IMG/VR virus record: IMGVR_UViG_3300045988_169095
DNA from: a virus
Direction: 5' to 3' (one strand)
DNA: 64,000 bases
Numbering within the stretch: the first letter of the stretch is position 1; each line of letters opens with the position of its first letter. Made by a program: the position numbers and the translations under genes. The notes under the pieces are model-generated. The model was not told the DNA's origin and did no database searches. It saw only the letters and a list, made by a program, of their open reading frames with translations. Of the stretch, positions 9,699-48,453 are shown in pieces.

Positions 9699-10243
9699 CG
9701 GGAACTCGTCTAAGCGAGTCTAAACAGATCTTTAAGCTTAGAGCGTCTCTGGTCATAAAGACCAGAGGGTAGATAGAAGAAATTTAGAATTATAAAAATT
9801 TTAAATTTCTTATAAATTTATTATTATTATATTAATATTAGCCCACCTAATTATAAATAATCACCTAATTATAAATAATATGGAAGAACTTTGAATTCGG
9901 AAATATAATACTTAAAGGTGGGACGGAGGATATGGTCAGTTCCTTTGAGACAGTGCCATATTCAAGTATGTTATCTAGTCAATAATGTACTTCAGAGAAG
10001 GTTTTACACGCTCTGTTCCATTGTGCTATCAAGCCTTAACCCGACTTAAACTTAGTCTATGGGACTTTGATCGGTCCCATAGGCTCTTATGTGGTGGCGA
10101 TTGCCGCGTTAAGTTAATTTTGTTCATATTGTTAGTATTTTCTTCGAAATTGCCACATCTTGCAAGATCTGAGGGTTTGGTTGCAATCCAAGAAGCAGAA
10201 GAAAGAAAATGGTTGTAAACTAAGTATTTCAAGCAACAACGTT

Positions 10244-23074: not shown

Positions 23075-23523
23075 CAGCAGTTATTTGATTACGCAACTAG
23101 GACAATAACAGCTTATGCACGAATGCGTCGTGACGATAGGCAGGTGATAGTGAGGAAGACTACCGTAGGAAATGACGGGGCAGACTGTAAAGTTCTATCC
23201 AGATACTTACCTCCAGCAGTGGCTAAAAGAGTATCATTTTTATTGAAATATTTTAATATATGGAAATTGTAAATATTATAGCAGCTTGTATAGTTGCTTA
23301 CTTTCTTCAACTTGGTATGGGTGCTGTATTGGGAACTAATCAAAATAAGTGGCTAAAGATTGGTTTTATTATTCCTGGTATTGGCCTCCTTGTACAGCTC
23401 GTATATTTATTTTATTGCGTGTTCTATATAATGTTTGATGAGGAGTAAGGCAATAAGGTGACATACAGCAATCTTTTTAAATTATTGCATTTGGGTAAAT
23501 ATGAACGTCACCTACCATTGATA

Positions 23524-24498: not shown

Positions 24499-24586
24499 AC
24501 ATCTGTTATTTTTATAAGGTATCAAACAGCAAACCTTTTACAATCAAATAACTTTTAATCATTAAATGATGTAGGGATACCTTTCT

Positions 24587-25361: not shown

Positions 25362-25419
25362 CATAGTTTTATTATTATTTATTACAAAGTCTCTTCAGCA
25401 AAATTTATAGCATGGGGGC

Positions 25420-25490
25420 ACTATGGTCACAGGTTCAATTCCTGTTTAATAGAAAAGTTCTATTAATAGCTCAGTTGGTAGAGCGATAGT
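25420..25490 (+). tRNA. Candidate circularly permuted tRNA. The 3' half (anticodon stem 3' strand ACTAT, variable loop, T-arm ACAGG-TTCAATT-CCTGT, acceptor 3' strand TTAATAG) at 25420-25452 precedes the 5' half (acceptor CTATTAA, D-arm TAGCTCAGTTGGTAGAGC, anticodon stem 5' strand ATAGT) at 25460-25490.
   Basis: The two halves are perfectly complementary in the 7-nt acceptor and the 5-nt anticodon-stem strands. No T-arm lies downstream of the 5' half. Confidence 0.45.
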
Positions 25491-25512
25491 TAATATAATA
25501 GAGACTTTTTAT

Positions 25513-25588: not shown

Positions 25589-25603
25589 CTATAATTCAAA
25601 ATT

Positions 25604-26179
25604 ATGAATAAAATTGACAAATATTTAAGAAGGTTTGCATACAAAATTGAAACCTCTGAGACAAAGGAATCTAGGTATTATACTATTGGGGATTTAATCG
25701 TTAGAGTATCTAATCATATTGGGAAAAATTCTTCTGGGAATATATCAATAATTATTGACAGAAATAATTATATACTTTATGTTCCATCAACTAATAAAGT
25801 AAGTCTTATTTCTTATGAGGAGTGTAAAACTTTAATCAGAGGTATTGTATTACATGCTTCTTTATTTTTGGTTGGAGATTCTACATATCAAAAAAGTCTT
25901 GTTAAGGAGAATGAAGAGTTAAAACTTCAGATTAGTAATTTAAAGCAGAAAATAAATATTCAGGAAAGACAATTAATTCCGAAGAAAAAACCAAATGATA
26001 CGTCTATCAAAGTAATTCGAGCTATTTTAATAAATTTAGAAAAGTGCAAAAAGAAAAAAATTAAAGTTAAGTATGGCTCTTGTGAATTTCAAACGTTACC
26101 TGACAGTACGATTTATGAAATTTGGAAAGATCCAGAAATTCGAAAATATGTTAAAGAACTTAAAATTAATTTAATATGA
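25604..26179 (+). CDS. Hypothetical protein.
   Basis: 191-aa ORF. Confidence 0.45.
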   Translation: MNKIDKYLRRFAYKIETSETKESRYYTIGDLIVRVSNHIGKNSSGNISIIIDRNNYILYVPSTNKVSLISYEECKTLIRGIVLHASLFLVGDSTYQKSLVKENEELKLQISNLKQKINIQERQLIPKKKPNDTSIKVIRAILINLEKCKKKKIKVKYGSCEFQTLPDSTIYEIWKDPEIRKYVKELKINLI

Positions 26180-26961
26180 AATTAAATGTATTACTCGCAA
26201 AACTGGAGCAGGGTGCTTCCCAGTTTAAAGCTCTCCTTCGAGATTATACAACCTTCTTTAAGAAGGAGTCAGACAACTTTCGAGGTGTTAAAAATACCTA
26301 CGAACCTCGTCCTGACACTGTAGATCTTCCCAGTGAACGTAAACTCATTGCGGTTGTAACAACAGTTGATGAGAAATTCGATTATTTCACTGATATGGTA
26401 AAAAACTATATCAGGGAGATGTTCAATTGTGAAGCAACTAATGCATCGGGAACTGCTCGTGCAGATCTGGTTGTGGATGGTAATGTAATTGCTAATCTGA
26501 GCAGTCTGGAGCTTCTTAAGCTCAAGTCATTTCTGGAAAATCCTCAGCTTCAGGAGATGTTCCAGAACATTCCCGTTCGTAAAGATTCTGAGATCTGGGA
26601 ACCATGTACTGAAGAAATGTATGCAGGTCGAGCAATTATGCAGTCTCCCCTTCTGAAAGGTACTAAAAAGTCTATCACTAAGACTCAGTACATTTTGGAA
26701 GATCCGAATGTTCAGAAGCTCGGCAGTGCAACTCACTATCAGCCCCAAATTGCAGTAAAAGATACTGTGATGGAACTGGGTGATTATACCATGCAGCGTT
26801 TCTCTGGTGAGTGGACCCCTCGTCAGCGAGCATTAGCTCTTCAGCGTAGAAGTACTCTTCTGTCAGCAACTATTGCTGCACTGAAAGTAGCAAATGAGGT
26901 AGAAGCAGTAAAATCCAATCTGGATTCAGAATGGCTGCTGAACTATCTCCAAGGTAGGTAA
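26176..26961 (+). CDS. Hypothetical protein, GC-rich.
   Basis: 261-aa ORF. Confidence 0.45.
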   Translation: MKLNVLLAKLEQGASQFKALLRDYTTFFKKESDNFRGVKNTYEPRPDTVDLPSERKLIAVVTTVDEKFDYFTDMVKNYIREMFNCEATNASGTARADLVVDGNVIANLSSLELLKLKSFLENPQLQEMFQNIPVRKDSEIWEPCTEEMYAGRAIMQSPLLKGTKKSITKTQYILEDPNVQKLGSATHYQPQIAVKDTVMELGDYTMQRFSGEWTPRQRALALQRRSTLLSATIAALKVANEVEAVKSNLDSEWLLNYLQGR

Positions 26962-27127
26962 TAAAACAAACAAAATATTTGACGATAGACTTAGCTTCAG
27001 ACTTAGACTAAGTAGCAAAGAACTGTAATATCCTAGATAAATTACAAGGAGCTACATAAGATTTAGTGTCGCGTCAAAAGCTTTAGTCTCAAGTTAATAA
27101 GGATGTGCTAATTCACTAATAAAAAAA

Positions 27128-27211
27128 TCATAAGACTGGGGGTTCGAGTCCCCCATTCGCCGCTAATTAAATCACTATATGGCGAATTGGAGAAATGGTT
27201 AACTCGTATGA
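27128..27211 (+). tRNA. Candidate circularly permuted tRNA. The 3' half TCATA-AGACT-GGGGG-TTCGAGT-CCCCC-ATTCGCC-G at 27128-27162 precedes the 5' half GGCGAAT-TG-GAG..CTC-G-TATGA at 27181-27211.
   Basis: Acceptor 7/7 complementary (ATTCGCC vs GGCGAAT). Anticodon-stem strands TCATA/TATGA complementary. An 18-nt linker lies between the halves. Confidence 0.45.
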
Positions 27212-27296
27212 ATACAATAAATTAAAGTGAGTTAGATGCACATTATCGTACAATATTTAAGAATACTGTAATTCATCAATGAAGGGGAAGTAAGCG

Positions 27297-27401
27297 GGCC
27301 ATGCTTGCTTCTCCATTTTATGGCCCTGTAAGCAAAGTGGTAAAGCTGCTTATATATTCTAGGTTCATAAGTGTGTGGAGGTTCGAGTCCTTCCATGGCC
27401 A
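27297..27401 (+). tRNA. tRNA-like element with an unresolved intervening body. Acceptor strands GGCCATG/CATGGCC are about 93 nt apart. The 3' part TCATA-AGTGTGT-GGAGG-TTCGAGT-CCTTC resembles the 3' half at 27128.
   Basis: Canonical T-arm and acceptor pairing, but the D-arm and anticodon arm cannot be placed canonically. Possible intron or rearrangement. Confidence 0.3.
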
Positions 27402-27500
27402 CGTGGTTTCATATTTAATTTGTTTTTAAGAAGAGGTAACTTACAGCAAATTTAAGTATAATTCGTCTGTTAATTATTCATAGTTACCTAGTTTTAAGGA

Positions 27501-27597
27501 GCGGGTATGGCGCAATTGGTAGCGCAGAGCACTTTTAATGCTAAGGGAGCCGAAAGGCCGTTCAGGGTTCAAGTCCCTGTGCCCGCACTATTTTTGG
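27501..27597 (+). tRNA. Type II tRNA with a long variable arm closed by a GAAA tetraloop. Anticodon loop CTTTTAA (reads as TTT). Identity unresolved and atypical.
   Basis: Acceptor GCGGGTA/TGCCCGC. D-stem GCGC/GCGC. T-arm CAGGGTTCAAGTCCCTG. Confidence 0.45.
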
Positions 27598-27659
27598 ATA
27601 TATAAAATAAAGTTATTATCTTTGTAACACAAGGTTACTTCAGCAAGCTTCTTCTACTG

Positions 27660-27760
27660 AATTGTATTTTGTTGAACAGCGATCTGGGTTCGAGTCCCAG
27701 TTATAGGAAACTTCAGGGCTGAGAAGTACTATAGTCGTCTAATGGTAGGATGTAAATTAG
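27660..27760 (+). tRNA. tRNA half-elements in a non-canonical arrangement. A T-arm CTGGG-TTCGAGT-CCCAG plus 3' acceptor-like GTTATAG at about 27676-27698 is followed downstream by a D-arm-like segment ACTATAGTCGTCTAATGGTAGGA at about 27731-27755. Possibly a third permuted tRNA.
   Basis: CTATAGT (27732-38) can pair with GTTATAG (27691-97) only by allowing two G.U pairs. Weaker than the other two loci. Confidence 0.25.
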
Positions 27761-27779
27761 AGTAACCTAGCCCATTTTT

Positions 27780-27852
27780 GGGAGTATGGCGCAATGATTA
27801 ACGCAATCGGCTGTTAACCGATAGATTCCAGGTTTGAATCCTGGTGCTCCCG
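27780..27852 (+). tRNA. tRNA-Asn(GTT).
   Basis: Acceptor GGGAGTA/TGCTCCC. Anticodon stem ATCGG/CCGAT with loop CTGTTAA. Confidence 0.55.
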
Positions 27853-27870
27853 CTTAAAATTTTAACAAAA

Positions 27871-28329
27871 ATGATAAAGATTTATCTTGCAGGCCCTTTC
27901 TTTAATGAAAAAGAAAGAAATTACATAGAAATTGCAGCAAATATTTTACGTAATCAGGGATATGAAGTTATAGTTCCTATGGAGCATTTCATTGAAAATG
28001 GTGAGAAGCTAACTAATGAGGAATGGGCACGTAAAGTATTTGAATATGATGTAGAGCAAATCAGAAATGCAGATTGTATACTTGCAATTTATCATGGTCA
28101 TTACTCTGATAGTGGTACTGCATGGGAAATAGGCTTTGCATTTGCACATGATACAACTTGTATTGTTGCTCATGTTGATCCAAGTATTACAGCAAGTATA
28201 ATGCCTGTTACTGGATGCTACTACAATATTAAATTCTCAGATATTGGTAAGATAGATCTGAAGAATTTACTTGATAATGAAAGGCCTTCTTCCAGAGGAT
28301 TGAATGCTTGGATAGTAGAGCAGAAGTAA
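27871..28329 (+). CDS. Nucleoside 2-deoxyribosyltransferase.
   Basis: The IYLAGPFF motif and family-typical length. Confidence 0.6.
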   Translation: MIKIYLAGPFFNEKERNYIEIAANILRNQGYEVIVPMEHFIENGEKLTNEEWARKVFEYDVEQIRNADCILAIYHGHYSDSGTAWEIGFAFAHDTTCIVAHVDPSITASIMPVTGCYYNIKFSDIGKIDLKNLLDNERPSSRGLNAWIVEQK

Positions 28330-28543
28330 CACAACTAGGATTTGTAGTGAAATGTAAAGCCGAGAGTGCGGTATGGACATTGCAGGCTCTGATATGAAGG
28401 CACTCTAATCTATCAGTATTAGTCCAGAGATCAGAAATGATTCAAAGCGAAAATTTCATAGTTGTGTTTTTACAAGGTCTCTTACAGCAACCTTTATTTA
28501 GCAATAGACTTTTAATCTACGTAGCTTTATAGAGACCTTTTAT

Positions 28544-30256: not shown

Positions 30257-30322
30257 ATATAAAGTAGCATACAGCAAATTTAAAACTTATAATATTGGTA
30301 AATTATAAATTGCTACTTTTAT

Positions 30323-30614: not shown

Positions 30615-30700
30615 CTAATAGGCTACATACAGCAATTAGCTTCTTAATGTATTTTTTGGATGATAGTGTAGCCTTTCTTTGAAATTAATTATTACAAAAT

Positions 30701-32854: not shown

Positions 32855-32940
32855 CCCGACGCGGCTACGATGGTGGAGTGGCGCAGCACTGTAAATGCTG
32901 TACATCAGAAACTCATGAGGTTCGAATCCTCACGGCGGGA
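32855..32940 (+). tRNA. tRNA-Tyr(GTA), type II.
   Basis: Anticodon stem CAGCA/TGCTG with loop CTGTAAA. Long variable arm. T-arm TGAGGTTCGAATCCTCA. The acceptor is 6/7 paired. Confidence 0.5.
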
Positions 32941-32955
32941 CTAATTTATATTGAC

Positions 32956-33426
32956 ATGAAAATTGTAGATAATTTTATATTCTTCTGGGGAGGTTGGTTA
33001 AGTAACTTTCATCCTTGTAGAATAGTATTTGGCTCTAAAGTTTTTAAATCATCTGAACAGCTTTTTATGTATCTTAAAGCTTTGCATTTTGGTGATATAG
33101 AAACAGCAGAGAGGATTCTATTAGCAGAGACTCCAAAGGAAGCTAAAACCCTTGGTAGGGAGGTTAGAAACTTTGATGAAAAATCCTGGAATGAGGTTAA
33201 GATTCAGAAAATGTATCTTGCCTTGGAAGGTAAATTTAGCCAAAATAAAGATTTAATGGATAAACTTAAAGACCCAGCATTAAATGGGAAATTCTTTGTT
33301 GAAGCATCTCCCTTTGATAGAGTCTGGGGTATAGGCTATGATCAAGATCATGCACTTCAAAACCAATCAAATTGGGGAGAAAATCTACTTGGTAAGACTC
33401 TTACCTTTTACAGAGGATCTTTATAA
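32956..33426 (+). CDS. NADAR (DUF1768/YbiA-like) domain protein.
   Basis: A pattern of conserved residues matching the NADAR family. ATG at 32956, after the tRNA. Confidence 0.55.
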   Translation: MKIVDNFIFFWGGWLSNFHPCRIVFGSKVFKSSEQLFMYLKALHFGDIETAERILLAETPKEAKTLGREVRNFDEKSWNEVKIQKMYLALEGKFSQNKDLMDKLKDPALNGKFFVEASPFDRVWGIGYDQDHALQNQSNWGENLLGKTLTFYRGSL

Positions 33427-33432
33427 ACAATT

Positions 33433-33473
33433 TGCGGATATTGACATCGCTCAATATCCGCTTTATTTTTAAA
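33433..33473 (+). terminator. Rho-independent terminator.
   Basis: Stem GCGGATATT..AATATCCGC followed by a T-run. Confidence 0.55.
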
Positions 33474-33483
33474 ACTTAATAAG

Positions 33484-35175
33484 ATGTTTGAAGCAAAAAA
33501 GAAAACATTATTTGCTGTTGATAGCAGTAAATCGGCATCTAAATCAGCCTTTATTCAGGCAGGATTAAAAACTGCAGCAGAAACCACTACAGGTAACGGT
33601 GGTAAAGCCTATTCCAGTACAGGGGATCCCTTCGTTGACCAGTTTGGTAGTACATCTAAGTACAGAGAGATTCGCCCATTTGCAGAAATTGCAAAAGATT
33701 GTGAAATTCTCTGGGCAGAAAATAAAGAAGATACTGTTAAATTTATCTTTTTCTTGCGAATGATTTGTCGTAAGATTAATGATAAAGAGTATGGTACCAA
33801 AGAAGCACAGAAGGGTTCTGAACTTCGTCATGAAGGTATTATGCGTCTCATCTGGCTGCATATCAAAGATAAAGAAGTGTTCTGGAAGAATGCTTGGTTG
33901 ATTCCCTTAGTGGGTTCTTGGAAAGATCTCTTCGTTATGCTTCGTTATGACTTAGTTTATAACGGCTGGGAACACCGAGTTCTGGATTGGCGCCGTTTTG
34001 CAGATCTGATTACTGCTGGCCTTAGTTCTGATTCCCAAACGAATCTTCTTCGTAAGTATCTTCCTCAGATCAAGGCACGTTCCAAGTGTACTACAGTAGA
34101 GGCACAAGCAAATTGTATGATTGCAAAATGGCTGTGTTCAGAACTTTACGGTGCGTCAGGAGCAAAGACAGATGCTGAAAAGTATCAGGTATATCGTTCT
34201 TATGCAAAGATGAAAGCCGCAGGGACAGCACATAGCTGGCAACAGCTTATTTCAAAGCAACGATATACAGAGATTGACTTTGATAAGATTCATGGTCGTG
34301 CCTTAAACCTTCTTGTACACTCCAAGTTCTTAGAGAATCATAATCTCAAAGAGAAGTATCAGGAATGGATAGGAGCTCCAGAGACAAAGAAGGTGAAGTA
34401 CACAGGTTTTGTACATGAGCTCTTTAAACCTATTTGTAACACTGCTCCTTATAATATAGAGCAGCATATCAAAGATACTATTAATAAGCAGTTTATGACT
34501 CTTGTTAATAAGTGTAAGGAAGAGGGCAATACTACAGATCTAATTGTAGTACGTGATACTTCTGGTTCAATGGGTGCAGAAGCAACTGGAACTTCCATGT
34601 CTTGTTACAATGTAGGTAAGGCAATTGCTCTGTATTTCTCTTACTTCTTGAGAGGAAGGTTTCAAAATGCATGGATTGAGTTCAACTCGAAAGCTATGAT
34701 GCATGAGTGGAAAGGAGAAACTCCTCTGGAAAAATGGTTTAATGACCATTCAGGGTACTATGGAAGTACAAACTTTGAGGGTGTTATTAACCTCTTTACT
34801 CAGTTGAAACTTGAAGGTGTTCCAGAAGAGGAATTTCCTAAAGGAATTCTTTGTATCAGTGATTGTGAGTTTGATGCTTCAAGTCTGAATAAGACTTCAG
34901 TTGAAAGAGTTCATGATACATTGACAGCTGCAGGATTTTCTAAAGAGTATGTTGATAATTTTGTCATTTGCCTTTGGAATTTGAGAAATGATTACTACGG
35001 ATATAATGTACAAAATCGTGTTCCATTCCAAACTTATGGTGACGTCAAGAATGTCTACTATATGTCTGGATATTCAGCACAGATTGTATCTTTCTTAAAT
35101 AGGAAGGTGCAGACTACACGGGATCTGTTTGATGAGGCTATGAATCAAGAGATTCTGTCTCTCATTAAGATGTAA
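33484..35175 (+). CDS. Large protein with a C-terminal vWA-like MIDAS motif. Possibly a DUF2828-like family member.
   Basis: 563 aa. MIDAS motif DTSGSMG. GC-rich. Confidence 0.45.
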   Translation: MFEAKKKTLFAVDSSKSASKSAFIQAGLKTAAETTTGNGGKAYSSTGDPFVDQFGSTSKYREIRPFAEIAKDCEILWAENKEDTVKFIFFLRMICRKINDKEYGTKEAQKGSELRHEGIMRLIWLHIKDKEVFWKNAWLIPLVGSWKDLFVMLRYDLVYNGWEHRVLDWRRFADLITAGLSSDSQTNLLRKYLPQIKARSKCTTVEAQANCMIAKWLCSELYGASGAKTDAEKYQVYRSYAKMKAAGTAHSWQQLISKQRYTEIDFDKIHGRALNLLVHSKFLENHNLKEKYQEWIGAPETKKVKYTGFVHELFKPICNTAPYNIEQHIKDTINKQFMTLVNKCKEEGNTTDLIVVRDTSGSMGAEATGTSMSCYNVGKAIALYFSYFLRGRFQNAWIEFNSKAMMHEWKGETPLEKWFNDHSGYYGSTNFEGVINLFTQLKLEGVPEEEFPKGILCISDCEFDASSLNKTSVERVHDTLTAAGFSKEYVDNFVICLWNLRNDYYGYNVQNRVPFQTYGDVKNVYYMSGYSAQIVSFLNRKVQTTRDLFDEAMNQEILSLIKM

Positions 35176-35187
35176 ACTTAATAGGCT

Positions 35188-35218
35188 CTAGTAGAAATAC
35201 TAGAGCCTTTTTATTAAT
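35188..35218 (+). terminator. Rho-independent terminator.
   Basis: Stem GGCTCTAGTA..TACTAGAGCC followed by TTTTTATT. Confidence 0.55.
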
Positions 35219-35227
35219 AATCTAATT

Positions 35228-35362
35228 ATGGGTAAGTACCTTAAAGATTATCAAATTCCTGATTATTGCGAGGAGGATAAACCTAGAATGCCAAAGCGGC
35301 CTAAGAAGTTTAAAGACCAAGAGGGAGGAAAACCTTTAGTAAAGAAAAAGTTCAAGCGATGA
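35228..35362 (+). CDS. Small basic protein (44 aa, or 49 aa if the terminal TGA is read through).
   Basis: Short ORF with RBS-like context. Confidence 0.3.
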   Translation: MGKYLKDYQIPDYCEEDKPRMPKRPKKFKDQEGGKPLVKKKFKR

Positions 35363-35663
35363 AGAGATGATTCTTAAGAGTATTTAGAAGGTTTAATGAA
35401 CCATCAACTGATAGTTCAAAAGAATTTCCTAAAAAAGTAATTGACTTAGAACAATTTGACGATGTATTCATAGTTACTAATAAAAAAGTATATAAGGCCT
35501 GGGTTATGAAAAGAACCAGTAGACTTTTACAGATTTTTATTTGGGAGTCTAAAAAGGAGGTAATTATAAATACAATTGGACAAGCTAATTCTAGTGTTAT
35601 TCCTTTTGGCAAGGATAGCTATTTAATTATAAATAAAAAAGATATATGCGATTACTTGTAGTA
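35359..35663 (+). CDS. Hypothetical protein (about 100 aa) with TGA=Trp at codon 4.
   Basis: Open only if TGA is sense. Overlaps the start of the following gene. Confidence 0.3.
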
Positions 35664-36227
35664 GTTGATATGCAAGAAGACTTCATCAGAGGTGCATTAA
35701 CGGTTCCTGGTGCTGAAGAAATAATTTCTCCTATAGAGAAATTAGTTAAAGAGTATATAACAGCAGATGATGCTGTCCTTTTTACTCGGGATACTCATTA
35801 TGAGCATAGTGATACTAGGGGATTTAGCTATGCTATGACTCGTGAAGGTAGAAATCTTCCAATTCTTCATTGCGTTTGTGGAACTGAAGGTCATAAGCTT
35901 ATTAAGGAATTTAAGCCTTATCTTCGTTCCTGCTATGTAATGGATAAACTAAATAGGTTTGGATTTATCCAGGATGAGTTTAATGATGCCAAGATAGATG
36001 ATGGAGAATATTTATTCGACATCGCTGATTGCATTACAGAAATTACTTTGGTTGGTGTAGTAACTAATCTTTGTGTTATTTCATGTGCTGTAAGTTTTCA
36101 GCAAATATTCCCTGATGCAGATATCATCATAGATGCTTCCTGCTGTCGTTCCAATAACAATGAACTTCATAACAAAGCTTTAGATGTTATGGAGGGTTTA
36201 CAAATGACTATAATTAATCGTTATTAA
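35646..36227 (+). CDS. Isochorismatase-family hydrolase, nicotinamidase (PncA)-like.
   Basis: N-terminal LLVVDMQEDF and cysteine-hydrolase fold length. Confidence 0.55.
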   Translation: MRLLVVVDMQEDFIRGALTVPGAEEIISPIEKLVKEYITADDAVLFTRDTHYEHSDTRGFSYAMTREGRNLPILHCVCGTEGHKLIKEFKPYLRSCYVMDKLNRFGFIQDEFNDAKIDDGEYLFDIADCITEITLVGVVTNLCVISCAVSFQQIFPDADIIIDASCCRSNNNELHNKALDVMEGLQMTIINRY

Positions 36228-36313
36228 TTTTTTGATTTTTATAAACTTAATGTTTAGAACAGTTTGTGAAATTAAATTTTATTGATATCTTTGTAGTATA
36301 AAACTAATAAAGT

Positions 36314-36802
36314 ATGGATAAAATTTGTTCAAAATGTGGGGAAACTAAAGACATTTCACTCTTTGCTAAGGATCGACACTCTTCTGATGGATATACTTAT
36401 TGATGTAAAGATTGTAGAAATACAGCAAATAAGAAATATCGGAAAGAAAATCCTGATAAAGTTCAGGAACATAATGAAAAGTGAAGAGATAAAAGAAAAG
36501 AATATTATAGTCTTCCTAAAAATCAAGAAAAGCTTAGAAGACATCATCTCAAGAAAATGTATAATATTACTTTGGAAGACTATGATGCTTTGTTTCAACT
36601 TCAAGGTGGTGTTTGTGCTATATGTGGAAAACCTGAAACAAGCTCAAAGGCTAGTAACTTAGCAGTAGATCATAATCACACAAATGGTAGTATTAGAGGC
36701 CTATTATGTAATAAATGTAATAGAGGCTTAGGATATTTTGAAGATGATGCAACTATTTTGTCTAAAGCTATAGAATATTTAAAAAATAAAGATAATGTTT
36801 AG
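36314..36802 (+). CDS. HNH endonuclease (T4 endonuclease VII-like) with 2 in-frame TGA=Trp codons.
   Basis: N-terminal zinc-ribbon CSKCG..CKDC joins in frame to the track ORF at 36557-36802, which carries CAICGK and DHNH. Confidence 0.5.
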
Positions 36803-38279
36803 ACCGTGTTCAGTCCTCCTTTCAGATTTTTATAAGCAGGATCACCAGCGTCAATATGACCCTAGCATCACTAAGGTAGTTTCTTACTATGTACCTCGTA
36901 AAACTAGGATTCCTGAATTTGATAAGGTAGTAGTTTTTGGTATTCAAGCATTTATTGAGGAATATCTGATTGAGTACATGAATGAAACTTTCTTTAACCG
37001 TCCCTTAGAAGAAGTTATTGCAGAATATGAATTTGTGATTTCTTCTACTATGGGAGCAGACCGTGTTAACTCGGATAAAATTAAAAACCTTCATGAATTA
37101 GGATATCTTCCTATCGAAATTTGGGCACTTCCTGAGGGATATAAAGTAGGAATGAATATCCCCTGTATCGAGATTTCTAATACTAATCCAGAATTTGCAT
37201 GGTGTACTAATTTCATTGAAACCTTGATGCTCTCTGAGCTTTGGTATCCAATGTGTGTTGCAACTGCTGTAACTAAATATCGTAGTATTGTAAATGATTT
37301 TTATTCTAAAACTTCTGATATTTCTGGTCGTTCTGCTATTTCTGAGTTCGGATTTAGAAGTTTAGTTGGACTTCATGGTGCTATTAAAGCTTCGTGTGGA
37401 TTTTTGCTCTCTTTTAATAAGACTGCGACTATTCCTGGCATTATGTATGCTTCAAAGTATTATCATACCCCAATGTCTGTAGTAGGTGGAGGTATGGCTT
37501 CTACTGAGCACTCCGTAATGTGTAGTTCTGCTGCCATTGATGGGGATGAAAAAGTTATGATTCGACGCCTCCTTACTGAGGTCTATCCTAATGGATCATT
37601 CTCTATGGTAAGTGATTCCTATGATTACTGGAATGTTGTCGATGAGATTCTCCCATCTCTTAAGGAAGAAATTCTCAGTAGAAATGGTACTTTGTATGTT
37701 CGTGGTGACTCTGGAGATCCTGTAGAAATTGTAACTGAGACGGTTTTCTCTCTTTGGGAGACTTTTGGAGGCACTGTCAACTCTAAGGGATATAAAGTCT
37801 TAGACCCTCATGTTCGAGCTTTATATGGTGATGGCATCACTCAGTTACGTGCAAAACAGATTTATCAGATTTTGTATGATAAAGGATTCTCTGCAGAGAA
37901 TGTTGCACTTGGTGCAGGAGGATTTTCCATGCTTTCTTACATGGATGAGTTTGGGAATGTAGATATGTTCTCTCGCGATACATTTAATGTAGCAATTAAA
38001 TGCAGCTATGTAGAACAAACCATTGATGGAAAAACTAAATCTATCATGGTCTACAAAGATCCTAAAACGGATTCAGGAATGAAGAAATCCCACAGAGGAT
38101 GTTGTGCTGTTTTCTACAACCATGTAACTGGTGAGTTTGATTGTGATGAAGGTATGACACTGAAAGAAGCTCATAATGAGCCTTTCAATTTACTTCGTCC
38201 TATCTTTTCAGATGGAAAAATGAGAGAGCAAACTACTCTCACAGAAATTCGTAGAACTCTTTGGAACGGGAAATTCTAA
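36795..38279 (+). CDS. Nicotinamide phosphoribosyltransferase (NAMPT/NadV family). May be a Namat-like enzyme.
   Basis: Extended similarity blocks to NAMPT: SDFYKQ..YDP, LPIEIWALPEG, SDSYDYWN, GDSGDP. Confidence 0.65.
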   Translation: MFRPCSVLLSDFYKQDHQRQYDPSITKVVSYYVPRKTRIPEFDKVVVFGIQAFIEEYLIEYMNETFFNRPLEEVIAEYEFVISSTMGADRVNSDKIKNLHELGYLPIEIWALPEGYKVGMNIPCIEISNTNPEFAWCTNFIETLMLSELWYPMCVATAVTKYRSIVNDFYSKTSDISGRSAISEFGFRSLVGLHGAIKASCGFLLSFNKTATIPGIMYASKYYHTPMSVVGGGMASTEHSVMCSSAAIDGDEKVMIRRLLTEVYPNGSFSMVSDSYDYWNVVDEILPSLKEEILSRNGTLYVRGDSGDPVEIVTETVFSLWETFGGTVNSKGYKVLDPHVRALYGDGITQLRAKQIYQILYDKGFSAENVALGAGGFSMLSYMDEFGNVDMFSRDTFNVAIKCSYVEQTIDGKTKSIMVYKDPKTDSGMKKSHRGCCAVFYNHVTGEFDCDEGMTLKEAHNEPFNLLRPIFSDGKMREQTTLTEIRRTLWNGKF

Positions 38280-39049
38280 TGAAAGAAGTATATGAAGGAA
38301 TAGTTTCCTTTCTTAAGAATTATCAAGAACGTACCCATGTGAAAGGGTATGTTCTTGGTATTTCTGGAGGAAAGGATTCTACTGTAGTGGCCAAATTATT
38401 GGTAGATTCTATAGGTAAGGAAAATGTATTAGGTGTGCTAATGCCTAATGGTAAGCAAGCTGATATTGAGGATAGTTATACAGTATGTGACTTTCTTGAT
38501 ATTAACTATACTGTTGTTAATATAGAAAATGCGTTTGATGAACTTATTCATCAAATTGATGTTTCGAAAATAACTACAGTGGAAGGGAATGAAGAAAACA
38601 TTCCAGTAACGAAAAAGGCTCTTACTAATGTTCCTCCTCGTATTCGTATGACTATTCTATATACTATAGCTCAGTCTGTAGGATATCGAGTAGCGGGGAC
38701 TAGTAATGCTTCAGAATTATTTATTGGTTGGGGAACTAAATGGGGAGATTTGGCATCTGATATTAATCCTATTTCTCAATTAACATGTTCTGAAGTTATT
38801 TCTTTAGGAGACTATATGGGACTCCCATATGATCTTATACATAAGACTCCTGCAGATGGATTAACAGGAAAGTCTGATGAAGAAAATTTTGGTTTTACAT
38901 ATAAAGAACTTGACACTCTTATTGTAAAGCAGCGAAATCTTACTTGCACAGGTAGAATACAATGTGCTTTTACTGAACAAGAATTAAAAATCTTAAAATT
39001 ACATGAAGCTGCGTATCACAAAGATCATGTAATTAAAATACAGTATTAA
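38261..39049 (+). CDS. NH3-dependent NAD+ synthetase (NadE)-like PP-loop ATPase.
   Basis: The motif GYVLGISGGKDSTVVAKLL (SGGxDS PP-loop) and NadE-like length. Confidence 0.55.
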   Translation: MEREILMKEVYEGIVSFLKNYQERTHVKGYVLGISGGKDSTVVAKLLVDSIGKENVLGVLMPNGKQADIEDSYTVCDFLDINYTVVNIENAFDELIHQIDVSKITTVEGNEENIPVTKKALTNVPPRIRMTILYTIAQSVGYRVAGTSNASELFIGWGTKWGDLASDINPISQLTCSEVISLGDYMGLPYDLIHKTPADGLTGKSDEENFGFTYKELDTLIVKQRNLTCTGRIQCAFTEQELKILKLHEAAYHKDHVIKIQY

Positions 39050-39050
39050 T

Positions 39051-39941
39051 ATGGGAAGCGGATCATGGAGTTCTAGCACATATAAAGCTTTTGCTAATAG
39101 CTATACTAAAAAATCCAGAGAAGAAATCTTTCATCAAAGATCTCTACACGAAGAAATGGATCTTACAAAAAGTAAGACGCATATTCGAGAATCTAGAGAT
39201 TCTGAGGAACACCCAGAATCTCTTCCAGTTTTCATTGCATTAGATGAAACTGGTTCAATGGGTTCAATTCCTGATAAGATGATCAGGGATTATCTTCCGA
39301 AGTTAATGGATTCTATTATTGATTCTATTGGAGTTAAACACCCTCAAATTCTTTTTATGGGAGTAGGAGATCATGAATGTGATCACTGCCCGTGTCAGGT
39401 AGGTCAATTCGAATCTTCAACTGTTGCAATTAATCAGTGTCTCTCTAAAATCTATTTGGAGGGTCGTGGTGGAGGTAATAGTGGAGAATCCTACTTACTT
39501 CCTTGGATTATTGCAGGAAATCACACGTCAATTGATAGCTGGGAAAAGCGAAAGCAAAAAGGATTCCTTTTTACAGTTGGTGATGAACCTACTTTGACAA
39601 GAATAAGTAGGGGAACTTTGGCATCCCTCACTGGAATGGAGTATGAGCGTGATTATACCTGGCAGGAGGCTTATGAACTTGCCTGTGAGAAATATCATGT
39701 GTTTCATATCCATGTTCGACATGGAAGTGAACATTATGATGAGGTAGTAGCTAAACAAATGAAAGAAATTCTTAGAGAAAACTTTATTGTGTGCAAACCT
39801 GATGAAGTTGTAGAAGCCATTTGTGAAGCTATGGGTAAAACTCTAAAAGGTAGCTCTTCAGTAATTGAAGAGGTTTCTGCAGAAAAAACTGTAGAAAATA
39901 CAGAATCAAAACCTAATATATTTGACATACATCGACGATAA
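39051..39941 (+). CDS. vWA-domain protein.
   Basis: MIDAS motif FIALDETGSMG. Confidence 0.45.
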   Translation: MGSGSWSSSTYKAFANSYTKKSREEIFHQRSLHEEMDLTKSKTHIRESRDSEEHPESLPVFIALDETGSMGSIPDKMIRDYLPKLMDSIIDSIGVKHPQILFMGVGDHECDHCPCQVGQFESSTVAINQCLSKIYLEGRGGGNSGESYLLPWIIAGNHTSIDSWEKRKQKGFLFTVGDEPTLTRISRGTLASLTGMEYERDYTWQEAYELACEKYHVFHIHVRHGSEHYDEVVAKQMKEILRENFIVCKPDEVVEAICEAMGKTLKGSSSVIEEVSAEKTVENTESKPNIFDIHRR

Positions 39942-41035
39942 TGTATAATATTGTAGTGGGTTGTACGTTTGGCGACGAGGGCAAGGGTCAAGTGACTCAT
40001 GCCCTTTGTTGCGACGCTAAAAGAAAGCGTTTAAAACCTCTGGTTGTTAGATTTTCTGGAGGGCATCAAGCAGGGCACACAGTAACTACTTCATTTGGAA
40101 CAATGCATATATTTTCTTGCTTTGGATCTGGAACATTTGCTGAAGCACCTACCTATTGGATGAAGCAATGTGTTATGGATCCACTACAATGGATGCGGGA
40201 ACGAGAGGAGTTGGATTTCTTAGGATGTAATATCCCTATCCAATATTTTGATCCATATGTACAAGTAACAACTCCTTTTGACGTAATGCTGAATTCTGAA
40301 AGGAGTAAAGGTTTTACAGTAGGAAAAGGGATATGGGAGACTGTTCAGAGACAAAGAGAAGGACTAGCTTTATATGTAAAAGATTTAGCTTTTCCTCAAG
40401 TTGTAAAAATGAAGCTCCGATTAATTAGAGAATGGGCGGAAGATAGACTCCAGTTTAAGGAAACTTATTCAAGATTTGCTTATGTTTTCGATAACTTAGA
40501 TTCTTTAGTACATACTTATTGTAAGATTTTTTATCCCAATATAGTATTGGAGGATACGTTATCTAAATTAGCATGGAAAGAAAAGACTTCTGTGATATTT
40601 GAGGGTTCTCAAGGAGTACTTTTGGACCCTAATATTGGATTTTCACATGAATATACTACCCCACTTCCATGTTGTCCATCGTGGGACAATCTCCCATTCT
40701 TTTTAAGTGATGATCAACTAATATTTAATTTTGTATATAGATCTTATTTAACAAGACATGGTAAAGGGCCTGTTGGAGGTTCTATATTCAAGGAGATTAA
40801 TAATCCTTATGAAACAAATTTAAATAACCCTTTTCAAGGGGAATTTCAAACTTATGAATTCAATAAGGAATTAGTCTTGTATGGAATTGATCATGTTAAA
40901 TCACACTTTAATCCTGAATATAAGGTAAGGTTGATTGAAACATGTTGTGACATATGTGCAGGACATGACTTAGGAATCCCTTATAATTACTCTATCAAAA
41001 CCTGCAAAAAGAATTTTGACTCTGTATGCAAATAA
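39941..41035 (+). CDS. Adenylosuccinate-synthetase-family protein, truncated (364 aa, PurA/PurZ-like).
   Basis: P-loop GDEGKGQ and GGHQAGHT motifs characteristic of PurA. Confidence 0.5.
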   Translation: MYNIVVGCTFGDEGKGQVTHALCCDAKRKRLKPLVVRFSGGHQAGHTVTTSFGTMHIFSCFGSGTFAEAPTYWMKQCVMDPLQWMREREELDFLGCNIPIQYFDPYVQVTTPFDVMLNSERSKGFTVGKGIWETVQRQREGLALYVKDLAFPQVVKMKLRLIREWAEDRLQFKETYSRFAYVFDNLDSLVHTYCKIFYPNIVLEDTLSKLAWKEKTSVIFEGSQGVLLDPNIGFSHEYTTPLPCCPSWDNLPFFLSDDQLIFNFVYRSYLTRHGKGPVGGSIFKEINNPYETNLNNPFQGEFQTYEFNKELVLYGIDHVKSHFNPEYKVRLIETCCDICAGHDLGIPYNYSIKTCKKNFDSVCK

Positions 41036-41832
41036 TTAACTTTTTATACCCAGAAAAGTCAGAAATAAAGTATCGAATTGATACTTATCCTGATTCCCAA
41101 TCCCATCTTGTACTTGAGTCTGAAATGGATAGACGAAAGTCTCTGTTGATCTATACTAGATTATCCAATTTGAATGATATTTGGATTCTAATGCAATTAG
41201 TGGATATTTGTCATCGTCAAGGTATCCAGATTTCCTGTCTACAAATAGCTTATTTGTTTGCAGCGCGAACTGATAGATTATTTTCTTTTAATGAGGCATT
41301 AGATTTGGAGCTTGTTAAAAAATGTCTTATCTTTGTACAAGCACAGCGAATTCTAGTACTGGATCCTCATTCTAAGCGTTTGATTACAGAAGGGGTAATT
41401 GATAATGACTGGCCTGCATTCTTTGCTTTAGAAGCAAGTTCTAATATTCCAGAGAATGTTTTATTCCCTGACGAAGGTGCCTATCATCGTTACAGTGAGC
41501 TTTTTGACTCTGATACGACATACTATGCTACAAAGCATAGGATTTCAAGAGATAAGCTAGAGGTAAAATTACCTTCTAGAATAAAGCAAAATACTTCTAT
41601 TCTAGTTTTTGATGATTTATGTGATGGTGGGGGAACTTTCTTTGCAATTCATAAAGCATTACAAGACATGGGAGTAACTGATATGCATTTACGTGTCATA
41701 CATGCTATCCAAAAAGAACCTTTAGTAAAGTTATCAAAACTTTACAAAACAATAACAATTACCAATTCTTATAAGGATTGGGATAAAGAAGAACTTCCAA
41801 ACAATATAAAAGTAATAAAAGTTTATGAATAA
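41026..41832 (+). CDS. Ribose-phosphate pyrophosphokinase (Prs)-like protein. Candidate ADP-ribose pyrophosphokinase (Adps-like).
   Basis: AARTDR resembles Prs RQDR. The PRPP-binding loop reads ILVFDDLCDGGGT. Confidence 0.5.
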   Translation: MQIINFLYPEKSEIKYRIDTYPDSQSHLVLESEMDRRKSLLIYTRLSNLNDIWILMQLVDICHRQGIQISCLQIAYLFAARTDRLFSFNEALDLELVKKCLIFVQAQRILVLDPHSKRLITEGVIDNDWPAFFALEASSNIPENVLFPDEGAYHRYSELFDSDTTYYATKHRISRDKLEVKLPSRIKQNTSILVFDDLCDGGGTFFAIHKALQDMGVTDMHLRVIHAIQKEPLVKLSKLYKTITITNSYKDWDKEELPNNIKVIKVYE

Positions 41833-42175
41833 ATTTAATGAAATTCTGAGTGCTACTGGAACTGCGGTACTCAAGAAACGTGCTGAAATTATCAATGCTG
41901 ATGCCCGCGAAGCAGCTAAGGATCAGGTTAATCTTATTGAGAAAGAGATTCGTCAGATTAAGTCCAAGATTATGAATCTGGAGGATCTGTCGATTAAATC
42001 GACCGAATCACTGGTTGTAGGTACGGATTTTAAGGCAGATGAGTGGGTAACTCAGATGTTCAAGCTTCGTGATGACTTGCGCAACGCTGAAATCTGTCTG
42101 GAAATTGCTCAGAATATTTATAATGAGTATTTCACAGAACTTCCTGAAGTAAGCTGCGATAAGAAAGCAGAGTAA
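41825..42175 (+). CDS. Small coiled-coil protein.
   Basis: 116-aa ORF. Confidence 0.4.
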   Translation: MNKFNEILSATGTAVLKKRAEIINADAREAAKDQVNLIEKEIRQIKSKIMNLEDLSIKSTESLVVGTDFKADEWVTQMFKLRDDLRNAEICLEIAQNIYNEYFTELPEVSCDKKAE

Positions 42176-42185
42176 CTTCATAGGC

Positions 42186-42205
42186 GGATTTACTCCGCCT
42201 TTTGA
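42186..42205 (+). terminator. Rho-independent terminator.
   Basis: Stem GGCGGA..TCCGCC followed by TTTT. Confidence 0.5.
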
Positions 42206-42279
42206 GGGCCTTTAGCTCAATTGAATAGAGCATCTGACTACGGATCAGAAGGTTACAGGTTTGAGTCCTGTAGGGCCCA
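42206..42279 (+). tRNA. tRNA-Arg(ACG).
   Basis: Acceptor GGGCCTT/AGGGCCC. Anticodon stem TCTGA/TCAGA with loop CTACGGA. Confidence 0.55.
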
Positions 42280-42475
42280 CATATGAAAACTGTTTTATAT
42301 AGAATACAATCAATTGAAGCTCCAGAAAATGAAGGGTTTCGGTATGGCTCATTAAGAACACTATCTAAGACAAAAGTAGATGAAGAAATGTGCTTAAGGA
42401 ATGAGTTTGGAAGTCATTATCTAATTAATGTTCCAGATTATTGAATTTGTGAGATTTTAAAAGAAATAGAAGAAG

Positions 42476-44600: not shown

Positions 44601-44615
44601 TAATAACATTATAAT

Positions 44616-45926: not shown

Positions 45927-45931
45927 TAAAA

Positions 45932-48437: not shown

Positions 48438-48453
48438 CAAATAAGAAGTAAAT

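What the first reader, a model, noticed from the sequence alone, without database searches (positions are those of the whole stretch)
27128..27211. Second permuted tRNA with the same 3'-half-then-5'-half architecture
The 3' half TCATA-AGACT-GGGGG-TTCGAGT-CCCCC-ATTCGCC-G (27128-27162) is followed after 18 nt by GGCGAAT-TG-GAG-AAATGGTTAA-CTC-G-TATGA (27181-27211). The acceptor strands are 7/7 complementary and the anticodon-stem strands TCATA/TATGA are 5/5. Seeing the pattern at two independent loci, each with two perfectly matched stems, makes chance unlikely. The nearby elements at 27297-27401 and 27660-27760 also show irregular tRNA half arrangements.
Basis: seen in the sequence. Interest (0 to 1): 0.85.

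Follow-up and report, generated by a model that had tools for sequence, protein, structure and literature searches.

The report
Phage tRNA-shaped Y RNA, not permuted tRNA
The "3'-half then 5'-half" tRNA is real and conserved, but it is most likely a tRNA-mimicking Y RNA (YrlA-like) that partners with a Ro60-like RNA-binding protein encoded by the same large phage, not a split gene for a decoding tRNA.

Summary
27128-27162 (anticodon-stem 3' strand, variable loop, T arm, acceptor 3' strand, G73), an 18-nt linker and 27181-27211 (acceptor 5' strand, D arm, anticodon-stem 5' strand) form a complete cloverleaf in permuted order. In nine orthologues 99.4% of cells pair and 13 of 20 pairs carry compensatory double changes, while the linker drifts freely.

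It is probably not a gene for a decoding tRNA. No conserved U33 or 7-nt anticodon loop, no bulge-helix-bulge motif and no group I intron features are present. Instead leader and trailer form a covarying 19-bp bulged rod.

Rfam's YrlA model matches the sister locus at 25400-25511 but not this one. I call it a new variant of a known kind. Expression, Ro60 binding and processing are untested.

The parts
26176..26961 (+). DUF7873 protein gene, the conserved upstream neighbour of the RNA
   Evidence: Pfam PF25283, E 5e-31. The RNA lies directly downstream of this gene in the window, L050, L033 and L109. In L033 and L109 this gene directly follows the Ro60-like gene.
26962..27101 (+). Conserved 5' domain of the RNA or its leader. 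It carries repeated (C/U)UUAG motifs and a long-range helix, TTTGACG at 26978-26984 with CGTCAAA at 27072-27078.
   Evidence: Conserved between the window clade, L050, L033 and L109 (alignment A2). The helix changes with compensation (TTGACG/CGTCAA, TTGACT/AGTCAA, TCGACT/AGTCGA). This was read from the alignment and not tested statistically.
27102..27120 (+). Leader strand of the terminal rod helix (GATGTGCTAATTCACTAAT)
   Evidence: Single-sequence fold. RNAalifold on 5 orthologues gives 19 pairs, 4 of them with both sides changed in L050.
27121..27127 (+). Poly(A) side of the internal loop between the rod and the anticodon-like stem
   Evidence: Its length varies from 6 to 9 nt among near-identical strains.
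27128..27137 (+). Anticodon-stem 3'-type strand TCATA (27128-27132) and variable loop AGACT
   Evidence: 4 of 5 stem pairs have compensatory changes.
27138..27154 (+). T arm GGGGG-TTCGAGT-CCCCC
   Evidence: 2 of 5 pairs have double changes; G.U variants occur in L021 and L023.
27155..27162 (+). Acceptor 3' strand ATTCGCC plus discriminator G
   Evidence: 5 of 7 acceptor pairs have compensatory changes. Pair 1-72 runs G-C, then A.C (L001), then A-U (L018).
27163..27180 (+). Linker or loop closing the acceptor stem (18 nt here, 18-21 nt in orthologues)
   Evidence: Little is conserved beyond the first few bases.
27181..27206 (+). Acceptor 5' strand GGCGAAT, then TG, the D arm GAG-AAATGGTTAA-CTC, and G26
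27207..27220 (+). Anticodon-stem 5'-type strand TATGA (27207-27211) and the trailer side of the internal loop, AUACAAUAA
   Evidence: The loop sequence is not a conserved anticodon loop.
27221..27244 (+). Trailer strand of the rod helix, with a 3-nt bulge (GAT, 27235-27237)
   Evidence: A bulge sits at the same place in L050 (CAG), L033 and L109 (AAC).
27284..27321 (+). Terminator-like hairpin plus T run, the likely 3' end of the transcript
   Evidence: 13-bp stem, then ATTTTAT. A similar hairpin follows the L050 orthologue.
33484..35175 (+). Ro60-like protein gene (helical ring plus vWA domain; Pfam DUF2828/DUF7788; phrog_850 'RNA-binding protein')
25386..25508 (+). Sister locus 1: a type-A permuted tRNA-like module (25420-25490) inside a stem + UCAGCAA scaffold
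   Evidence: Rfam YrlA 30.6 bits, E 3.9e-4. Model R1 64.5 bits. The same scaffold holds a different module in L022.
27632..27768 (+). Sister locus 3: a permuted tRNA-like module with an extended, closed acceptor hairpin, in a stem + UCAGCAA scaffold
   Evidence: It is conserved in L025 and L026 with a covarying acceptor stem (CTATAG/TTATAG versus GAGTAG/CTACTT).

Best explanation
The locus encodes a structured non-coding RNA of the Y RNA / YrlA kind, from a large tRNA-rich phage. From 5' to 3' it has a conserved 5' domain, one strand of a long bulged rod, and a complete tRNA-like body threaded in permuted order. That order is anticodon-stem strand, variable loop, T arm, 7-bp acceptor stem closed by an 18-21-nt linker, D arm, and the other anticodon-stem strand. 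The second rod strand and a terminator follow.

Shown here:
- the fold is conserved with compensatory changes;
- the family is genetically linked to a phage Ro60-like gene on the same strand;
- the sister module is recognised by Rfam's YrlA model.

Inferred:
- the rod and internal loop are the docking site for the phage Ro60-like protein;
- the tRNA-shaped module acts as the effector end, attracting tRNA-recognising factors such as RNase P, the CCA-adding enzyme, modification enzymes, PNPase or host tRNA-targeting nucleases.

The particle would then work in RNA quality control, repair or counter-defence during infection. This fits the neighbouring tRNA array, the NAD-salvage genes and the NADAR and cREC genes. 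[quoted passage not shown] They are inferred, not shown.
For: 1. Architecture and covariation. On 9 orthologues, 99.4% of cells pair, 13 of 20 pairs have double changes, 0 of 500 shuffles reach this, and slid controls give 0-2. RNAalifold independently recovers a 19-bp leader/trailer rod with 4 compensated pairs and a conserved 3'-strand bulge.

3. Model R1 was built only from 15 modules of distant phages. It hits this locus at 56.6 bits (E 2e-16) and locus 1 at 64.5 bits; the next best hit in the window scores 22 bits.

4. Linkage across 65 loci that carry the Ro60-like gene. All 68 R1 hits are on the gene's strand. 35 loci have a hit of at least 40 bits, 25 of them within 1 kb and 34 within 4 kb. 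22 of the 52 loci not used for training have such a hit.

5. Synteny. The order is DUF7873 gene, conserved 5' domain, then this RNA. In L033 and L109 the DUF7873 gene directly follows the Ro60-like gene.

6. Rfam YrlA matches type-A relatives: L075 at 37.5 bits (E 2e-6) and window locus 1 at 30.6 bits (E 3.9e-4).

7. Several type-A relatives close the acceptor stem with GNRA tetraloops (GAAA, GUAA), so they are built as closed stem-loops.

8. Literature. YrlA has the order AC-T-AS-D-AC, lies next to Ro60, is known in 22 phages, and the form with a 7-bp acceptor stem is cut by RNase P and CCA-tailed (PMC4201824; 10.1101/312249). A phage Ro60 binds phage Y-like RNAs and host PNPase (PMC12135203).
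Against: - Rfam's YrlA model does not hit this locus even at E<=10.
- The YrlA 5' motif GNCGAAN0-1G is absent, and so is the ACAGCAA motif of the sister loci.
- In this window the Ro60-like gene is 6.3 kb downstream rather than adjacent.
- The Ro60-like protein does not match Pfam TROVE by sequence.
- There are no expression, end-mapping or binding data.
- The locus sits inside a tRNA gene array, and its tRNA body is more canonical than that of Salmonella YrlA: a 7-bp acceptor stem, a discriminator base and a 5-bp anticodon stem.
Confidence: 0.72

Rival explanations
1. It is a true circularly permuted tRNA gene. The precursor is cut on both sides of the anticodon stem and the ends are ligated, for example by an RtcB- or Rnl-type ligase, into a circle. 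The acceptor linker is then opened by RNase P and a 3' nuclease, which yields a decoding tRNA.
For: The halves make a canonical tRNA body (ARAGORN on the re-joined halves). The locus has a 7-bp acceptor stem, a discriminator base and an unconstrained linker. In the window clade the trailer reads A-U-(A/G)CA-A-U, which looks like an anticodon loop with variation only at position 34. The locus lies in a tRNA array. Wang et al. raised the possibility for YrlA RNAs (10.1101/312249).
Against: The loop-like sequence is not conserved: L050 has CAAGCAA and L033 and L109 have CAUAAUU and CAUAAAU, with no U33. The leader poly(A) varies from 6 to 9 nt. There is no 3-4-3 bulge-helix-bulge motif. No G lies near the 3' junction that could serve as a group I intron's terminal G, and Rfam finds no intron. 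The phage already has tRNA-Cys(GCA). No ligase or splicing endonuclease turned up among the 50 window ORFs scanned against Pfam or PHROGs. Related modules have GNRA-capped acceptor stems. The family is linked to Ro60-like genes.
Confidence: 0.08
2. It is a tRNA-shaped RNA that works without the Ro60-like protein. It could be a decoy or sponge for host anticodon nucleases or other tRNA-targeting defences. It could also be an RNase P/RNase Z 'punctuation' element that processes the polycistronic tRNA-array transcript.
For: The locus is embedded between tRNA genes. The body is tRNA-like with an intact elbow. In this clade the Ro60-like gene is 6 kb away. The phage carries many counter-defence genes: NAD salvage, NADAR and cREC.
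Against: This does not explain the conserved long bulged rod and the 5' domain. It also does not explain the strong same-strand adjacency to Ro60-like genes in distant phages.
Confidence: 0.15
3. It is non-functional debris: decayed remains of a tandem tRNA duplication (the 3' part of copy 1 and the 5' part of copy 2), or a chance match.
For: tRNA arrays in this lineage are very dynamic. Locus 1 is deleted in L018 and locus 3 has lost a T-stem strand in L018. A dimeric tRNA is the proposed evolutionary origin of YrlA (10.1101/312249).
Against: Compensatory changes occur in all four helices and in the rod. The leader and trailer are under purifying selection while the linker drifts. Shuffled sequence and the opposite strand give 0 hits.
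Confidence: 0.03
4. It is the tRNA-like domain of a two-piece (permuted) tmRNA.
For: The gene order is the same: T arm, acceptor 3' strand, linker, acceptor 5' strand, with a leader/trailer helix. Rfam gives weak hits: tmRNA_permuted at 11.2 bits (E 9.4) and the tmRNA T arm at 14.1 bits.
Against: There is no G3.U70 pair (position 3-70 is C-G). The discriminator is G or U, not A. A full D arm and anticodon stem are present. ARAGORN finds no tmRNA. No conserved tag reading frame is seen.
Confidence: 0.01

Closest known systems
YrlA-type bacterial and phage Y RNAs (Rfam RF02553; Chen et al. 2014, PMC4201824; Wang et al. 2018, bioRxiv 10.1101/312249)
   Same: The RNA is modular. Its 5' and 3' ends pair into a long bulged stem. 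The tRNA-like domain is threaded as anticodon-stem strand, V, T arm, acceptor stem-loop, D arm, anticodon-stem strand. It is encoded on the same strand as, and usually next to, a Ro60-type gene. Examples are known in phages. M. smegmatis YrlA also has a 7-bp acceptor stem and is cut by RNase P and CCA-tailed.
   Different: Rfam's YrlA model does not detect this locus, and the GNCGAAN0-1G motif is absent. The D arm is of another type (UG-GNG-AAAUGGUUAA-CNC rather than UA-GCUC-AGUUGGUA-GAGC). The acceptor linker is 18-21 nt long. There is an extra conserved ~140-nt 5' domain and a conserved DUF7873 neighbour gene. The partner protein is a divergent Ro60-like family (DUF2828/DUF7788) that Pfam TROVE does not recognise. 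In this clade the RNA sits in a tRNA array 6 kb from that gene.
Thermus phage phiLo Ro60 with Yrl1/Yrl2 RNAs (PMC12135203; PDB 9L5Y)
   Different: Yrl1 and Yrl2 were defined by a stem-bulge-stem with a CGAA motif, and the term tRNA-like does not occur in the paper's text. The proteins share only the fold (about 12% identity).
Circularly permuted tRNA genes of Cyanidioschyzon merolae, some green algae and Thermofilum pendens (Soma 2007; Maruyama 2010; Chan 2011, as cited in 10.1101/312249)
   Same: The 3' half lies upstream of the 5' half. The acceptor ends are joined by a short linker. Leader and trailer pair beyond the anticodon stem.
   Different: Those precursors carry a bulge-helix-bulge motif that is cut by the archaeal/eukaryal splicing endonuclease, and they regenerate a canonical anticodon loop. 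Neither feature is present here. The genes in the window suggest a bacterial host (OmpA, SLT, ABC transporter).
Two-piece (permuted) tmRNA
   Same: The tRNA-like domain has the same permuted gene order, and the leader and trailer form a helix.
   Different: The alanine identity pair G3.U70, A73, a tag reading frame and pseudoknots are all missing. A complete D arm and anticodon stem are present.

Membership tests
YrlA Y RNA (RF02553) | tRNA-like domain in the order AC strand, (V), T stem-loop, acceptor stem-loop, D stem-loop, AC strand | tested here: met
   Parsed. All four helices are supported by covariation.
YrlA Y RNA (RF02553) | 5' and 3' flanks pair into a long, bulged terminal stem | tested here: met
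   Searches show a 19-bp rod with 4 compensated pairs and a conserved 3'-strand bulge. The transcript ends are not mapped.
YrlA Y RNA (RF02553) | Conserved GNCGAAN0-1G motif near the 5' end (the presumed Ro60 contact) | tested here: not met
   A regex over 26962-27321 finds no match. The only CGAA is inside the acceptor strand.
YrlA Y RNA (RF02553) | Encoded within about 4 kb of a Ro60 orthologue, on the same strand | tested here: inconclusive
   In the window the RNA is on the same strand but 6.3 kb upstream of the Ro60-like gene. Orthologues in L033 and L109 lie about 1 kb downstream of it. For the family as a whole, 34 of 35 loci with a hit have one within 4 kb.
YrlA Y RNA (RF02553) | Match to the Rfam covariance model at the gathering score (69 bits) | tested here: not met
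   There is no hit at E<=10 on this locus. Sister locus 1 scores 30.6 bits and the L075 module 37.5 bits. Both are significant but below the gathering score.
YrlA Y RNA (RF02553) | Bound by the Ro60/Rsr protein in vivo | not testable with these tools
   This needs immunoprecipitation or EMSA with the 33484-35175 protein.
Ro60/TROVE protein (partner) | HEAT-repeat ring plus C-terminal vWA domain | tested here: met
Circularly permuted tRNA gene (C. merolae type) | 3' half, short linker, 5' half, with complementary acceptor strands | tested here: met
Circularly permuted tRNA gene (C. merolae type) | Bulge-helix-bulge (3-4-3) motif formed by leader and trailer at the junction | tested here: not met
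   A search for 3-4-3 motifs around the junction found none, in this locus or in five relatives.
Circularly permuted tRNA gene (C. merolae type) | Joining restores a canonical 7-nt anticodon loop (U33, R37) that is conserved among orthologues | tested here: not met
   AUACAAU/AUGCAAU occurs only in the window clade. L050, L033 and L109 lack U33.
Circularly permuted tRNA gene (C. merolae type) | A mature joined tRNA and a circular intermediate are detectable | not testable with these tools
   No transcript data are available.
Two-piece tmRNA | G3.U70 and A73 alanine identity, and a tag reading frame | tested here: not met
   Pair 3-70 is C-G and position 73 is G or U. ARAGORN finds no tmRNA. 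Rfam tmRNA_permuted scores 11.2 bits, E 9.4.
Group I permuted intron-exon | Intron core (P3-P9) in the flanks, and a terminal G immediately before the 3' exon | tested here: not met
   Rfam finds no intron in the flanks. The 3' half is preceded by A7, and the nearest G is 21 nt upstream.

The most novel reading that the evidence does not exclude
The type-B RNAs (this locus, L050, L033, L109) keep a 7-bp acceptor stem, a discriminator base and a free-drifting 18-21-nt linker. They may therefore be opened by RNase P, CCA-tailed and possibly charged. They might even be re-joined at the anticodon side by a phage or host RNA ligase. That would make them the first permuted tRNA genes, or two-piece chargeable tRNA mimics, in the bacterial/phage world, matured on a Ro60-like platform.
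Probability: 0.07. Interest if true: 0.9.

Novelty: new variant of a known kind. Interest (0 to 1): 0.5.

Why it matters
The result turns an apparent "permuted tRNA gene in a phage" into a testable ribonucleoprotein: a divergent Ro60-like protein with tRNA-shaped Y RNAs.

- More than 1,600 homologues of the protein turned up in phage-sized contigs, so the protein family is large.
- It extends the Ro60/Y RNA system to a protein family currently filed as DUF2828/DUF7788, and to an RNA subtype that the Rfam YrlA model misses.
- The RNAs sit among tRNA arrays and NAD- and RNA-conflict genes. This points to a role in the tRNA-centred arms race between phages and bacterial defences.
- For annotation, such loci should not be called split or permuted tRNAs or tRNA pseudogenes.

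Tried and rejected
- **Group I permuted intron-exon.** The flanks add up to about 250 nt, but there is no terminal G before the 3' half and Rfam finds no intron.
- **Bulge-helix-bulge motif.** None found.
- **tmRNA.** No G3.U70 pair and no ARAGORN call.
- **Known ribozymes at the junctions.** Rfam at E<=10 finds none in 26900-27900. The only ribozyme in the window is a Pistol at 9704-9774.
- **INPHARED phages, blastn with 25600-28400.** No match.
- **Exact-pattern scan of IMG/VR.** It returned only near-identical strains. A T-loop/D-loop pattern was needed to reach L033.
- **Syntenic relatives L025 and L026 (Ro-like 79% and 71% identical).** They lack a locus-2 orthologue and keep only locus 3.
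- **First permissive permuted-tRNA scan.** It was too noisy: 268 hits against 51 in shuffles. A strict version replaced it.
- **Genome-wide count of stem + CAGCAA elements.** The background is high in AT-rich DNA: 546 on the + strand, 250 on the - strand, 245 in shuffles. Only the strand excess is meaningful.
- **Sequence searches for the two proteins.** PDB and NCBIfam searches found nothing for the Ro60-like protein or for DUF7873.
- **Chen et al. 2014 supplement.** The YrlA alignments are not held.
- **Rfam Dicty_Class_I_RNA.** It does not hit the window's stand-alone elements at E<=10.

Full report

Yes. The window reads TCATA-AGACT-GGGGG-TTCGAGT-CCCCC-ATTCGCC-G at 27128-27162. An 18-nt linker follows (27163-27180), then GGCGAAT-TG-GAG-AAATGGTTAA-CTC-G-TATGA at 27181-27211. 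ARAGORN finds 27 ordinary tRNAs in the window but none here. The Rfam tRNA model finds none either. If the two halves are re-joined in silico, ARAGORN calls a tRNA whatever 7-nt loop is inserted. The halves therefore make up a bona fide tRNA body in permuted order.

A scan for T arms outside annotated tRNAs found two more such loci, at 25420-25490 and 27668-27756.

**2. Is it under selection?**

Ten IMG/VR contigs with an exact match are near-identical strains. Slightly more distant relatives already show compensation:
- Pair 1-72 is G-C in the window, A.C in L001 and A-U in L018.
- Pair 7-66 is U-A in the window and C-G in L022.
- L021 and L023 have G.U pairs in the T stem.
- The linker is rewritten.

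Three more distant orthologues were found: L050, L033 and L109. Each lies downstream of the same DUF7873 gene, and all four stems have changed with full compensation.

On the nine-sequence alignment A3, 99.4% of cells pair and 13 of 20 pairs have changes on both sides. No shuffle out of 500 reaches this, and sliding the partners gives 0-2 such pairs. The cloverleaf is real. Debris or chance is excluded.

**3. What lies beyond the 'anticodon' stem?**

Leader and trailer pair. The single sequence folds into a rod. RNAalifold on five orthologues predicts 19 pairs (27102-27120 with 27221-27244). Four of these pairs are compensated in L050, and there is a 3-nt bulge in the 3' strand. L033 and L109 have an analogous two-segment rod with an AAC bulge.

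Between the rod and the 5-bp stem lies an internal loop:
- The leader side is a poly(A) of 6-9 nt.
- The trailer side reads AUACAAUAA in the window, AUGCAAUAA in L022, CAAGCAAUAG in L050, CAUAAUUAC in L033 and CAUAAAUAA in L109.

Only the window clade could be read as a U33-bearing anticodon loop, so it is not a conserved feature. No 3-4-3 bulge-helix-bulge motif can be drawn in this locus or in five relatives. No G lies near the 3' junction that could serve as a group I intron's terminal G. Rfam finds no intron or ribozyme in the flanks.

About 140 nt upstream of the rod are also conserved, with a long-range helix that changes with compensation (read from alignment A2). A terminator-like hairpin at 27284-27314 follows.

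**4. What is it?**

The layout is a terminal bulged rod, T arm, acceptor stem closed by a loop, then D arm. [quoted passage not shown] They are encoded next to Ro60 orthologues in more than 250 bacteria and 22 phages (PMC4201824; bioRxiv 10.1101/312249).

The window encodes a 563-aa protein at 33484-35175. Pfam files it under DUF2828/DUF7788 and PHROGs calls it an 'RNA-binding protein'. Its AlphaFold model has pLDDT 81.7 and pTM 0.83. The best structural matches are Ro60:
- Foldseek top hits are 1yvp and 2i91.

**5. Is the RNA family linked to that protein?**

I fetched 80 loci around homologues of the protein.
- A strict permuted-tRNA scan gave 31 hits, all on the gene's strand. There were none on the other strand and none in shuffles.
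- In phages whose protein is only 42-57% identical, the module lies 130-3000 nt downstream of the gene.
- I built a covariance model (R1) from 15 modules of those distant phages only. In the window it hits locus 1 at 64.5 bits and this locus at 56.6 bits (E 2e-16). The next best hit scores 22 bits.
- Across 65 loci, all 68 R1 hits are on the gene's strand. 35 loci have a hit of at least 40 bits, 25 within 1 kb and 34 within 4 kb. 22 of the 52 loci not used in training have such a hit.

For this subtype the order is Ro60-like gene, DUF7873 gene, then RNA in L033 and L109. In the window's clade the DUF7873-RNA pair has stayed together, while the Ro60-like gene now lies 6.3 kb downstream on the same strand.

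Rfam's YrlA model matches the type-A relatives: L075 at 37.5 bits (E 2e-6) and window locus 1 at 30.6 bits (E 3.9e-4). Both are below the gathering score of 69. It does not match this locus.

Several type-A relatives cap the acceptor stem with GNRA tetraloops. That argues they are closed stem-loops rather than ends to be opened.

**6. Mechanism**

Shown:
- a conserved permuted cloverleaf on a covarying bulged rod;
- genetic linkage to a Ro60-fold protein;
- a family relationship to YrlA-like modules.

Inferred by analogy:
- The rod and internal loop bind the Ro60-like protein.
- The tRNA-shaped end recruits tRNA-recognising factors or an exonuclease such as PNPase, as shown for Deinococcus and for phage phiLo (PMC12135203).
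- The particle acts in RNA surveillance, repair or counter-defence.

The neighbourhood is consistent with this. It holds a tRNA array, a NADAR gene, NAD-salvage genes, a cyclic-phosphate cREC domain protein, and PTH2 in relatives. Published comparative genomics describes a Ro/TROVE protein with a tRNA-like partner as an RNA-repair platform (PMC7824862).

This subtype keeps a 7-bp acceptor stem, a discriminator base and a free linker. [quoted passage not shown]

**7. Rivals**

- A true permuted tRNA gene is not excluded (about 8%). It lacks a conserved anticodon loop, a junction motif and an identifiable joining machinery among the 50 window ORFs scanned.
- A Ro-independent tRNA decoy or processing signal (about 15%) does not explain the rod or the linkage.
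- tmRNA and debris are rejected.

**8. Comparison and novelty**

It works like a YrlA Y RNA. Strict membership is not established:
- The Rfam model and the GNCGAAN0-1G motif are not met.
- Adjacency is met only in relatives.
- Binding is untested.

The differences are:
- a different D-arm type;
- a long acceptor linker;
- an extra 5' domain;
- a DUF7873 partner gene;
- a Ro60-like protein family recognisable only by fold.

I rate it a new variant of a known kind and of moderate interest. It is far less exotic than a phage permuted tRNA gene, but it exposes a large, unannotated family of phage Ro60-like/Y RNA pairs.

**Caveats**

- R1 E-values are rough because calibration is short.
- The R1 training modules were picked by a scan that demanded perfect stems, so A4 itself is not evidence of covariation. 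A3 is: its members are defined by synteny and sequence.
- All functional statements are inference.

Noticed in passing
window 23455-23520, 24514-24584, 27432-27490, 28474-28540, 30261-30320, 30620-30674 (also the scaffolds of loci 1 and 3); L075 10119-10361: There is a family of ~55-70-nt elements: a 7-10-bp covarying stem (with G.U pairs), then (U/A)ACAGCAA right after the 5' strand, then an A/U-rich variable interior. They often start with AAG and are flanked by GATAAG. Most sit between tRNA genes. In distant phages they form tandem arrays just downstream of the Ro60-like gene, and the same scaffold carries the type-A tRNA-like modules. Their design (AAG, short stem, CUUACAGCAA-like motif, variable loop, stem) strikingly resembles Dictyostelium Class I RNAs (PMC7919456). 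Rfam Dicty_Class_I_RNA gives only weak hits in L075 (17-20 bits; the gathering score is 41.5) and none in the window. They could be minimal Y-like RNAs for DUF2828-type Ro60-like proteins.
   Followed up: partly
window 9704-9774: A strong Pistol self-cleaving ribozyme (72.1 bits; the gathering score is 34.5) lies right after the stop codon of a visibly G+C-rich gene, where the sequence switches to visibly A+T-rich (read by eye, not profiled).
   Followed up: no
window 27322-27402 and 48348-48438: Two putative suppressor tRNAs have anticodons CUA and UCA (ARAGORN labels them 'Pyl' and 'SeC'). The CUA tRNA has a 13-nt anticodon loop, and a tRNA with a CUA triplet in the equivalent loop (read by eye, not run through ARAGORN) follows the RNA in L109. 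Several split-looking genes (helicase C-terminal fragment 60788-61369, DnaB C-terminal fragment 62034-62696, LAGLIDADG 56347-57069) suggest stop-codon recoding and/or introns and inteins in this phage.
   Followed up: no
window 27501-27588: tRNA-Lys(UUU) has a long, type-II-like variable arm (88 nt; Rfam tRNA 60.3 bits). In L021 the orthologous position holds an ordinary 74-nt tRNA-Lys. tRNA-Pro and tRNA-Thr also differ by 10-15-nt variable-arm insertions between strains.
   Followed up: partly
window 32878-43537 and 45881-46339: This stretch is a counter-defence and metabolism island around the Ro60-like gene. It holds NADAR, isochorismatase/nicotinamidase-like, NAPRTase, NAD synthase, adenylosuccinate synthetase, an IMPDH/GMP-reductase-like gene and a cyclic-phosphate cREC receiver domain protein. 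A nucleoside 2-deoxyribosyltransferase-like gene lies upstream of the island at 27844-28329.
   Followed up: partly
window 44570-44644: An orphan T arm (GTGGG-TTCGAGT-CCCAC) plus an acceptor-like 3' strand is called neither by ARAGORN nor by the Rfam tRNA model at gathering score. Model R1 scores it only 21 bits. It may be a degenerate tRNA or tRNA-like element.
   Followed up: no
L034 ~170-330; L029/L030 (minus strand, downstream of a tRNA): Other phages carry tRNA-like elements in conventional order but with extended acceptor stems, or with the ACAGCAA motif in the D-arm position. One example is AAACCAC-AU-ACAGCAA...GGUUCAAGUCC...GUGGUUU. This suggests that the ACAGCAA scaffold elements derive from tRNAs.
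   Followed up: no
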